The notes under the pieces are model-generated. The model searched no databases. It saw nothing but the letters and a program-made list of their open reading frames with translations, and was not told the origin of the DNA. The position numbers were made by a program, and so were the translations under genes. Below, piece by piece: positions 16,466 to 58,563 of a stretch of 64,000 nt of DNA. Source of the DNA: the human T2T-CHM13v2.0 reference genome, Homo sapiens; NCBI RefSeq assembly GCF_009914755.1, contig NC_060943.1; one strand, written 5' to 3'. Position 1 is the first letter of the stretch. Every line of letters begins with the position of its first letter.

Positions 16466-17467
<1,002 letters not shown>

Positions 17468-20092: not shown

Positions 20093-20296
<204 letters not shown>

Positions 20297-21838: not shown

Positions 21839-22733
21839 TCATGCTAGAAAGATAGATTTTATTTTTATGTCTCATATAGTATTTACACAAGGAGATTGGA
21901 AAGCAGAGTTTGATGTTCAGGAACAGAACCAGATTATGCTACGAGAATCATCTCCCGGCTGAAAATCTGCTGCCCTTTTAAAATATTTGTGCTGTCTTCA
22001 TAAACACATGATTCTCCACAGTGAGCCCTCATTTGTCACACTCTGTGTGTGCCTGACTCTCAGAGGGTTCCAAAAGAAAAAGTGGAAGCTGCAAAACCTC
22101 CTGGCTCAGCCTCCCGAGTAGCTGGGGAGCTGCCATAATGTCACTTCCTCCATAATCCTCCTAAACAAAGCTAGTCACAAGGTCTTCCCAGATTCAAGGA
22201 GCTGCAAGACACAGGCAAAGGGTGTCAATACAGGGGAAAGTGGGGAATCGGGGCCATTTTTGCCCAATCTCTGCTAGAGCTGCTTTGAGCCCAGAATTGG
22301 ATGCCCAGCATCCTGACAGCCCAGGGAAAAACGGAAATGAGATTAGCTCTCCTCTGAGAGGCAAAAACAACAAGTGGCCTGGGAGCATCAAGTTCATTCT
22401 TGAGCTTCCTGGCAGCCAGAGCAAAAAGGGCAACCTACTAAAACAGACACAACCTCTAGAGGGAGAGATTTTTTATTCTTTGCACTGAATTCTTACAGAG
22501 GACATTCGTCCTTTTGGCCAACAGTGTGTGGATACAAAGATGAACAGGAGTTCAGAAGTTTATGGCCAACATTCTGGTTTTCCATCTTGCTTTGCTCTGT
22601 ACTGTTGACTAATAACCCTCTCCTCTTTTTCTTCCTGCCACCTCCTCTCCTTCCCCTCTTTTCATGCATCTCTCTCCGCCATCTCTCTGCCATCTCCCCT
22701 CCACCCACCCACACATCTGTCCTCACTCCCCAG

Positions 22734-22832
22734 AACATGGGGGCTTCCAGCAGTTCTCTTTCCTTGGCTCCTTCCCACCGTCGCCCCCAGGATCTGCAGA
22801 GAGGTGCAGCTCTGCTATTTCTCCGCCAGGGG
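22734..22832 (+). CDS. MYH14: MYH14 alternative C2 cassette exon (33-aa loop-2 insert)
   Basis: cccag|AAC...GGGG|gtgggt; 99 nt, phase 1-1; EHGGFQQFSFLGSFPPSPPGSAERCSSAISPPG. Confidence 0.9.
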
Positions 22833-23745
22833 GTGGGTGTCTCTGTGCATCGATGGGTGAGGCTTGCTGGAGGAGGAGGGTGGACCTGTTGGGCTGGGGA
22901 CCTGGTTTTGAACATCTGTCCCCTCTCCTCTTACTGTGGAGGTCTCTCACTCTTCCTTTCCCTCCTTGTTGGCTCCCTTGGAAGTTTCCAGACTCTGTAG
23001 CAGCAGAACCCCTTCTTCTAACTAAACTGCATGTAAAAGTACAAACAAGCGTGATAGTACCAGCTCGCGTTTCTTGAGCACTTACTATGTGCCGTTCACC
23101 ATGTGAAACCCCTTTAGAATTATCAACACCCCATTACACAAATGAGGAAACTAAAGCACAGAGAAGTTAAGTAACTTGCTGAGGTCACACAGCCAGTAAG
23201 TGGCAGAGCTGGGATTTGAACCCAGGACATCAGATTCCAGAACTTTAGTTCTTATCTGTGCTATGAGGACTTAATAAATGATAATTATCATTTTGAAAAT
23301 GACAGGGAGTACGGGGTAGGGGAGACGGTTGAACCTGGGGAAGAAAATAACATATTTGAGCCCCTGCCATGACCTGGCCCTGCCCTAAGCACAGATTATC
23401 TAGTTGACGGTTGATGGCGCTTGAATGGGATGAGTTTTGCAGGACATCAGATTCTGCCCTAGCTGTGGGTTCCTGAGGAACCTGGCATGATTCAACACAT
23501 AGAATTTGGGACCAGGTGCATTGGCTCACCCCTATAATCCCAGCGCTTTGGGAGGCCGAGGTGAGAGGATCACTTGAGGACAAGAGTTTGAGATTAGCCT
23601 GAGCAACACAGGAAGACCCCGTCTCTACAAAATAAATTTAAAAATTGGTGGGCATGGTGGTGTGCGCCTGTAGTCCAAACTACTTGGGAGGCTGAGGTAG
23701 GAAGATCACTTGAGCCTAGGAGGTTGAGGCTGCAGTGAGCTGTGA

Positions 23746-24570: not shown

Positions 24571-25098
<528 letters not shown>

Positions 25099-28430: not shown

Positions 28431-28464
28431 GGGGCCCAGGTGGTCGGGGAGTGGGGCTGGGATC

Positions 28465-29209
<745 letters not shown>

Positions 29210-53822: not shown

Positions 53823-54758
<936 letters not shown>

Positions 54759-58401: not shown

Positions 58402-58563
58402 CTGAGAGATGCAGAGGTGGAGCGGGATGAGGAGCGGAAGCAGCGCACTCTGGCCGTGGCTGCCCGCAAGAAGCTGGAGGGAGAGCTGGAGGAGCTGAAG
58501 GCTCAGATGGCCTCTGCCGGCCAGGGCAAGGAGGAGGCGGTGAAGCAGCTTCGCAAGATGCAG
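58402..58563 (+). CDS. MYH14: MYH14 coding exon, rod (162 nt)
   Basis: tccag|CTG...CAG|gtaaga; [26 protein letters not shown]...QLRKMQ. Confidence 0.97.

What the first reader, a model, noticed from the sequence alone, without database searches (positions are those of the whole stretch)
22734..22862. C2 exon has two in-frame donors: 33-aa versus 41-aa loop-2 insert
Seen: besides GGG|gtgggt after 22832 (99 nt) there is a second donor TGG|gtgagg after 22856 (123 nt). It has the same phase and no stop, and adds GGCLCASM. Recalled knowledge: the C2 insert is described as 33 aa in human and 41 aa in mouse, and it alters regulation of the IIC motor by light-chain phosphorylation. Inference: the distal donor corresponds to the mouse-type boundary and is still intact, so humans may make a second 41-aa C2 isoform with two extra cysteines in the actin-binding loop.
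Basis: partly seen in the sequence, partly recalled or inferred. Interest (0 to 1): 0.7.

Follow-up and report, generated by a model that had tools for sequence, protein, structure and literature searches.

The report
Spare splice donor in MYH14 C2
A neuron-type exon of the human myosin gene MYH14 has a second in-frame splice site 24 bases downstream, at the spot where rodent versions of the exon end, so humans likely make the longer rodent-type motor loop only as a minor, untested side product.

Summary
Observation confirmed: GT donors follow 22832 (99 nt, annotated) and 22856 (123 nt), same phase, no stop, adding GGCLCASM. The distal site is colinear with the 41-aa boundary: 11 of 54 named mammalian MYH14 proteins have a 41-aa insert ending there, and Marmota marmota has both lengths. 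The mouse sequence itself was not retrieved. The residues over the distal site are invariant in 9 of 9 read-through translations. So the published 33-versus-41 species difference likely reflects a choice between two old donors. Human use is not shown. 0 of 10 primate species has a 41-aa model, RefSeq lists three transcripts with the 99-nt form selected, and both crude scores rate the proximal donor equal or stronger. The gene models look like projections of two template proteins, so they are weak evidence either way. Eight uncharged residues in loop 2 would probably change little. Best reading: real conserved tandem donor, minor in humans (0.6); substantial human isoform 0.2; unused 0.2. One junction-read count would settle it. 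Interest 0.3.

The parts
22734..22832 (+). Annotated C2 cassette exon, 99 nt, 33-aa loop-2 insert
   Evidence: Hub annotation (NM_001145809.2); same 33-aa length in 11 of 11 primate records
22830..22840 (+). Proximal (annotated) donor GGG|GTGGGTGT; 6 Watson-Crick plus 4 wobble pairs to U1, -11.5 kcal/mol
22833..22856 (+). 24-nt in-frame extension coding GGCLCASM (uncharged, two Cys); exonic only if the distal donor is used
   Evidence: 72% mean identity in 9 read-through translations against 81% for the exon body and 44% for the 8 residues after the donor pair
22854..22864 (+). Distal candidate donor TGG|GTGAGGCT; 6 Watson-Crick plus 3 wobble pairs to U1, -9.8 kcal/mol; colinear with the 41-aa boundary of rodent, ruminant and bat gene models
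22559..22733 (+). 173-nt AG-free, pyrimidine-rich zone and acceptor (81% pyrimidine in -150..-3); second longest of 29 window exons; likely binding area for a PTBP-type repressor (inference; motif recalled)
22606..22613 (+). Branch-point-like TGACTAAT about 120 nt upstream of the acceptor; the matching stretch recurs in 7 of 9 read-through translations
22855..22899 (+). G runs at 22855, 22878, 22891 and 22896; the first overlaps the distal donor, the others lie downstream of both donors
23021..23033 (+). ACTAA (23021) and TGCATG (23028), QKI- and RBFOX-type motifs (names recalled); the matching stretch recurs in 5 of 9 read-through translations
20153..20267 (+). Upstream constitutive exon, phase-1 donor
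24809..24996 (+). Downstream constitutive exon, common acceptor for both donors

Best explanation
The C2 exon of human MYH14 has two in-frame GT sites 24 bases apart, and the second lies where 41-aa C2 gene models of other mammals end; human cells likely splice mostly at the first and would use the second only for a small share of C2 transcripts. Shown: both sites, the open frame, their U1 complementarity, colinearity with 41-aa models and conservation of the residues over both sites. Inferred: both donors are old in placental mammals, and the published 33-aa (human) versus 41-aa (mouse) difference comes from which one wins. Once the exon is selected in neurons (likely by relief of repression on the long pyrimidine tract and by the downstream RBFOX-type motif), U1 chooses between the two sites. 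In humans the balance likely favours the proximal site: it pairs with U1 out to +8, and the distal site has T at -3 where Thr-ending species have C. The 41-aa product would add eight uncharged residues to loop 2 and probably behaves much like the 33-aa form.
For: Both sites in frame, no stop. 11 of 54 named proteins have a 41-aa insert ending at the matching position; both lengths occur in Marmota marmota and Bos indicus x taurus. The two residues spanning the distal site are invariant in 9 of 9 read-through translations and identity then falls to 44%. U1 pairing of the distal site beats 75 of 107 real donors. For minor use: 0 of 10 primate species with a 41-aa model against 9 of 31 non-primates (Fisher p=0.083). 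Proximal site is equal or better on U1 energy (-11.5 against -9.8; -9.9 against -9.8 over 9 nt) and on the 107-donor matrix (5.4 against 2.6). The hub table lists three human transcripts with the 99-nt exon in the selected one. No MYH14 row in the new-transcript tables of a human cortex long-read study.
Against: No human junction read or peptide was seen in either direction. The gene models are weak evidence: 8 of 11 41-aa species-isoform entries lack the C1 insert against 3 of 31 shorter ones (p=2e-4), which looks like projection from two template proteins. The database shows one representative per 90% cluster (the macaque record stands for 255 sequences), so 41-aa primate members could be hidden. 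The matrix over-penalises T at -3 (0 of 107 training donors, many homologous); on the 28-donor matrix the two sites tie, 5.7 distal against 5.4 proximal. Two bat models use the distal boundary after Met, i.e. with the human-type T at -3. Protein read-throughs cannot see the T of GT. Flanking intron is conserved too. The long-read study has read N50 near 1 kb, too short for this junction.
Confidence: 0.6

Rival explanations
1. Humans make a real second C2 isoform: the distal donor takes 10% or more of C2 inclusion in some neurons or in the cochlea, giving 41-aa proteins (2036 aa without C1, 2044 aa with it) that were missed because the product differs by only 24 nt.
For: Distal U1 pairing beats 75 of 107 real donors and ties the proximal site over 9 nt; it ties on the 28-donor matrix. 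Bat models use this boundary after Met. Residues over the site are invariant in 9 of 9. Marmota marmota has both lengths.
Against: 0 of 11 primate records; absent from the hub's selected RefSeq model; lower 107-donor matrix score; the passages of human biochemistry and review papers that I read name only 33 aa or 99 nt.
Confidence: 0.2
2. The distal site is unused in humans: a relic weakened at -3, kept recognisable because it lies in the conserved intron flank of a regulated exon and only 24 nt from the working donor.
For: T at -3 in 0 of 107 myosin donors; distal score beats only 2 of 107 on that matrix; 11 of 103 exons have an equally scoring in-frame GT within 30 nt. Intron flanks are conserved as well (branch-point and GCATG stretches). 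No primate model.
Against: Nine of 11 U1 positions pair. Identity is higher in the extension (72%) than right after the donor (44%), though on 9 related sequences selected for an open frame. Good nearby GT sites usually show trace reads in deep data (own knowledge).
Confidence: 0.2

Closest known systems
Mouse NMHC II-C2 / C1C2 (41-aa C2 insert; Jana et al. 2009, not held, cited through PMC6249808)
   Same: Same exon, same start; 41-aa length matches the 123-nt human form; 41-aa models of squirrel-family rodents end at the human 22856 position.
   Different: In mouse it is the described product, with a donor scored 9.48 by MaxEntScan (PMC13158602 supplement text; the analysis input is stated as mouse for the figure, and which GT was scored is not visible). 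In human it is unannotated and unshown. Mouse letters were not retrieved.
Human NMHC-2C1C2 (NP_001139281; 33-aa loop-2 insert)
   Same: First 33 residues identical; same acceptor and downstream exon; kinetics described in PMC3122181.
   Different: The candidate form adds eight uncharged residues with two Cys at the C-terminal end of the insert.
Short-distance in-frame alternative 5' splice sites (tandem donors) on cassette exons
   Same: Two GT sites a multiple of three apart, no stop, comparable U1 pairing.
   Different: Use of the second site in human is not shown; major donor appears to differ between species.
Paralogous loop-2 cassettes A2 (MYH9) and B2 (MYH10), 63 nt each
   Same: Neuronal loop-2 inserts; A2 is RBFOX-dependent at a weak donor (PMC13158602).
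   Different: The passages read describe one length for each; I did not examine those exons for second donors.

Membership tests
Alternative 5' splice site pair | Second GT with good U1 complementarity | tested here: met
   6 Watson-Crick plus 3 wobble pairs, -9.8 kcal/mol, beats 75 of 107 donors
Alternative 5' splice site pair | Consensus-matrix score in the range of real donors | tested here: inconclusive
   Beats 7 of 28 on the window matrix but 2 of 107 on the larger one, which has no T at -3; MaxEntScan and SpliceAI not available
Alternative 5' splice site pair | Frame kept, no stop | tested here: met
Alternative 5' splice site pair | Both junctions present in human transcripts | not testable with these tools
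   No RNA-seq tool; supplement searches of four papers gave no MYH14 junction rows
Ortholog of the 41-aa C2 isoform | Boundary colinear with 41-aa forms of other mammals | tested here: met
   11 of 54 named proteins, from 9 of 41 species, end at the matching residue
Ortholog of the 41-aa C2 isoform | Boundary colinear with the mouse donor itself | tested here: inconclusive
   No mouse record among the hits; only the length (41 aa) agrees
Ortholog of the 41-aa C2 isoform | 41-aa protein annotated or detected in primates | tested here: not met
   0 of 11 primate records, 10 species; cluster representatives only
Ortholog of the 41-aa C2 isoform | Motor active without light-chain phosphorylation | not testable with these tools
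   Reported for C2 forms in passages; no data for a human 41-aa protein

The most novel reading that the evidence does not exclude
The 33-versus-41 'species difference' of the C2 insert is a live alternative-donor switch kept across placental mammals, and human neurons or cochlear cells make a substantial, regulated 41-aa myosin IIC whose two extra loop-2 cysteines change actin binding, light-chain independence or redox sensitivity; variants in 22833-22864, now read as intronic, would then be coding or splice-site variants in a deafness gene.
Probability: 0.15. Interest if true: 0.55.

Novelty: new member of a known kind. Interest (0 to 1): 0.3.

Why it matters
If used, human MYH14 has two more isoforms than annotated, and mouse C2 biochemistry (41 aa) would have a direct human counterpart. 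MYH14 is the DFNA4 deafness gene (PMC13158602 passage, names DFNA4 for these isoforms), so 24 bases now classed as intronic would need re-reading in variant interpretation. It also gives a simple cause for a length difference that the papers I read state but do not explain. The likely effect is modest: length changes of loop 2 without charge change have little influence on actin binding (PMC3122181 passage), and a cited title places the functional residues at the N-terminal end of the insert, shared by both forms (Saha 2016, title only).

Tried and rejected
Primary papers not held: Jana 2009, Saha 2013 (20), Saha 2016 (45), Wong 2018 splice-site activity table (25, 30), and a full-length myosin paper looked up by a recalled id (60). 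Searches for a human 41-aa or 123-nt form in print found none; one search used genome coordinates recalled from memory (0 papers; the numbers may be wrong, so it is nearly uninformative); sought published scores for the two 9-mers (7 papers listed, none opened; none looked relevant by title). Supplement searches: PTBP2 human neurons, one gene-level row only; cortex long reads, one gene-level row; glioma single-cell splicing, none; NM IIA2 paper, none; three of these files were cut when stored. RNA folding of 22780-22920 is unremarkable (z=0.90, 166 of 200 shuffles fold as well), so structure-based masking of a donor is not supported. No solved structure matches the insert. The identity table had an off-by-one error and was redone. 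In-frame GTs after 22838 and 22844 rejected as donors. No structure was predicted, as a flexible low-complexity loop insert would not inform the question.

Full report
Observation. The exon begins at 22734 after a canonical AG; GT dinucleotides follow 22832 (99 nt) and 22856 (123 nt). The frame is open through the extension, which reads GGCLCASM. The upstream exon ends in phase 1 and the downstream exon starts with TG, so either junction yields Val. Two more in-frame GTs (after 22838 and 22844) have no donor quality.

Donor strength. MaxEntScan and SpliceAI were not available, so I used two crude scores. U1's 5' end came from the genome. The proximal site forms 6 Watson-Crick and 4 wobble pairs (-11.5 kcal/mol), the distal 6 and 3 (-9.8); over nine positions they tie (-9.9, -9.8). 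A matrix from the 28 other window donors gives 5.4 (proximal) and 5.7 (distal), each above 7 of 28. I then added 79 donors from three paralogous myosin loci found by same-length exon matching. On these 107 the scores are 5.4 and 2.6, above 14 and 2 of 107; no training donor has T at -3, so this matrix probably over-penalises the distal site. Base rate: 3 of 28 window exons and 11 of 103 myosin exons (4 of 107 could not be placed uniquely) have an in-frame, stop-free GT within 30 nt scoring as high on the matrix; 0 of 28 on U1 energy. The site is a plausible donor, not a superior one.

Comparison with other mammals. Three protein searches returned 54 named MYH14 proteins with the insert: 41 with 33 aa, 11 with 41 aa, one with 30 aa and one reading on into the intron. 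All eleven 41-aa inserts extend the 33-aa form by eight residues that align without gap to the human extension and end at the position of 22856. They come from Marmota (two species), Ictidomys, Muntiacus (two), Bos (two), Rhinolophus and Phyllostomus; Marmota marmota and Bos indicus x taurus have both lengths. No primate record has 41 aa (0 of 11 records, 10 species, against 9 of 31 non-primate species, p=0.083). No mouse record was returned, so orthology to mouse rests on the length in print (41 aa, PMC6249808) and on other rodents. Eight unnamed open-frame translations across the exon plus one named read-through keep the two residues over the distal site in 9 of 9; identity to human is 81% in the exon body, 72% in the extension and 44% in the next eight residues. 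These are few, related, selected for an open frame, and blind to the third codon position, which is the T of GT. The residue before the distal site is Thr in rodents, ruminants and 5 of 8 unnamed sequences and Met in human, both bat models and 3 of 8 unnamed ones; by the genetic code that is C against T at position -3.

A caution on gene models. After dropping six records with no junction or unreadable loop 1 and counting each species-isoform once, 8 of 11 41-aa entries lack the C1 insert whereas 3 of 31 shorter ones do (p=2e-4; entries are not independent). That is what projection from two templates would give (a human C1-plus-33 protein and a C1-less 41-aa protein, presumably mouse; the latter is my inference). 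The models then show that the splice site is available in those genomes, not that it is used, and the absence in primates is likewise soft. Representatives also hide members: the macaque record stands for 255 sequences.

Regulatory setting. The exon has a 173-nt AG-free zone (second longest of 29), 81% pyrimidine, a branch-point-like TGACTAAT at 22606, G runs at and after the distal donor, and TGCATG at 23028; the branch-point and GCATG stretches recur in 7 and 5 of 9 read-through translations. Factor names (PTBP, RBFOX, QKI) are recalled. This fits a neuron-specific cassette, as the papers say, and shows that intron flanks are conserved too, which weakens conservation of the distal site as proof of use. 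Local RNA structure is unremarkable (z=0.90).

Literature, and what I saw of it. Passages: PMC3122181 (human 33 aa, kinetics, uncharged loop-2 extensions matter little), PMC6249808 (41 aa, constitutive activity), PMC13158602 (99-nt exon) with the text of its supplement 1 (C2 donor MaxEntScan 9.48; the 10-species alignment in Fig. S1B is a picture I could not see and may already show both sites), PMC10480317 (67% human-mouse identity), PMC3535348, PMC11335295, PMC9311317, PMC11502156, PMC5391180, PMC11863200. Supplement searches only: PMC10164156, PMC12699894, PMC10480317, PMC11863200; three files were cut, and bioRxiv supplements are closed, so junction tables I could not see may bear on the claim. 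In PMC11863200 MYH14 occurs once, in the gene-level sheet, and not in the 703-row or 3,432-row new-transcript sheets; read N50 was 0.7-1.6 kb, so this is weak. Jana 2009, Saha 2013, Saha 2016 and Wong 2018 were not held; I saw titles in reference lists only. Searches found no statement of a human 41-aa form; the primary paper might discuss it.

Mechanism and odds. Most likely both donors are old, exon inclusion is set by neuronal regulators, and U1 then picks between sites 24 nt apart; human favours the proximal site, and mouse the distal one (0.6 that human use is real but minor). A substantial human isoform gets 0.2 and non-use 0.2. Shown: sequence, frame, pairing, colinearity, residue conservation. 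Inferred: age of both donors, the cause of the species difference, the regulators, and any human use.

Novelty and score. The 41-aa protein is known in mouse and tandem in-frame donors are a known kind; a human counterpart would be a new member. The likely functional change is small, and one junction count decides the matter. Interest 0.3; 0.55 if a substantial, functionally distinct human isoform is found (probability 0.15).

Noticed in passing
window 28452-28990: The exon at 28991 has a 537-nt AG-free zone upstream with 85% pyrimidine in the last 150 nt, the longest of 29 exons; could be a simple repeat or a distant branch point.
   Followed up: no
window 54207-54217 and 16655-16665: Weak annotated donors AGC|GTGAGC (U1 -4.7) and CAG|GTCCAC (-5.6, lowest matrix score of the window).
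   Followed up: no
window 40247+12, 45805+9, 39062+27: Three other exons have an in-frame, stop-free GT within 30 nt of the annotated donor that scores as high as the C2 distal site on the matrix, though with weaker U1 pairing.
   Followed up: partly
L005-L010 (chr22 paralog), exon matched to window exon 58402-58563: A strong in-frame CAG|GTGAGG lies 21 nt after the donor that my same-length matching chose; either a second tandem donor or a wrong boundary from my matching.
   Followed up: no
P0062 (Loxodonta africana): C2 insert is 30 aa, an internal three-residue loss relative to the 33-aa form.
   Followed up: no
P0051 (Mandrillus leucophaeus): Model carries a 40-residue N-terminal extension before the usual start, hinting at an upstream in-frame start in primates; it lies outside this window.
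   Followed up: no
P0017 (Ictidomys): A named model reads through both C2 donors into the intron; likely a prediction artefact.
   Followed up: partly
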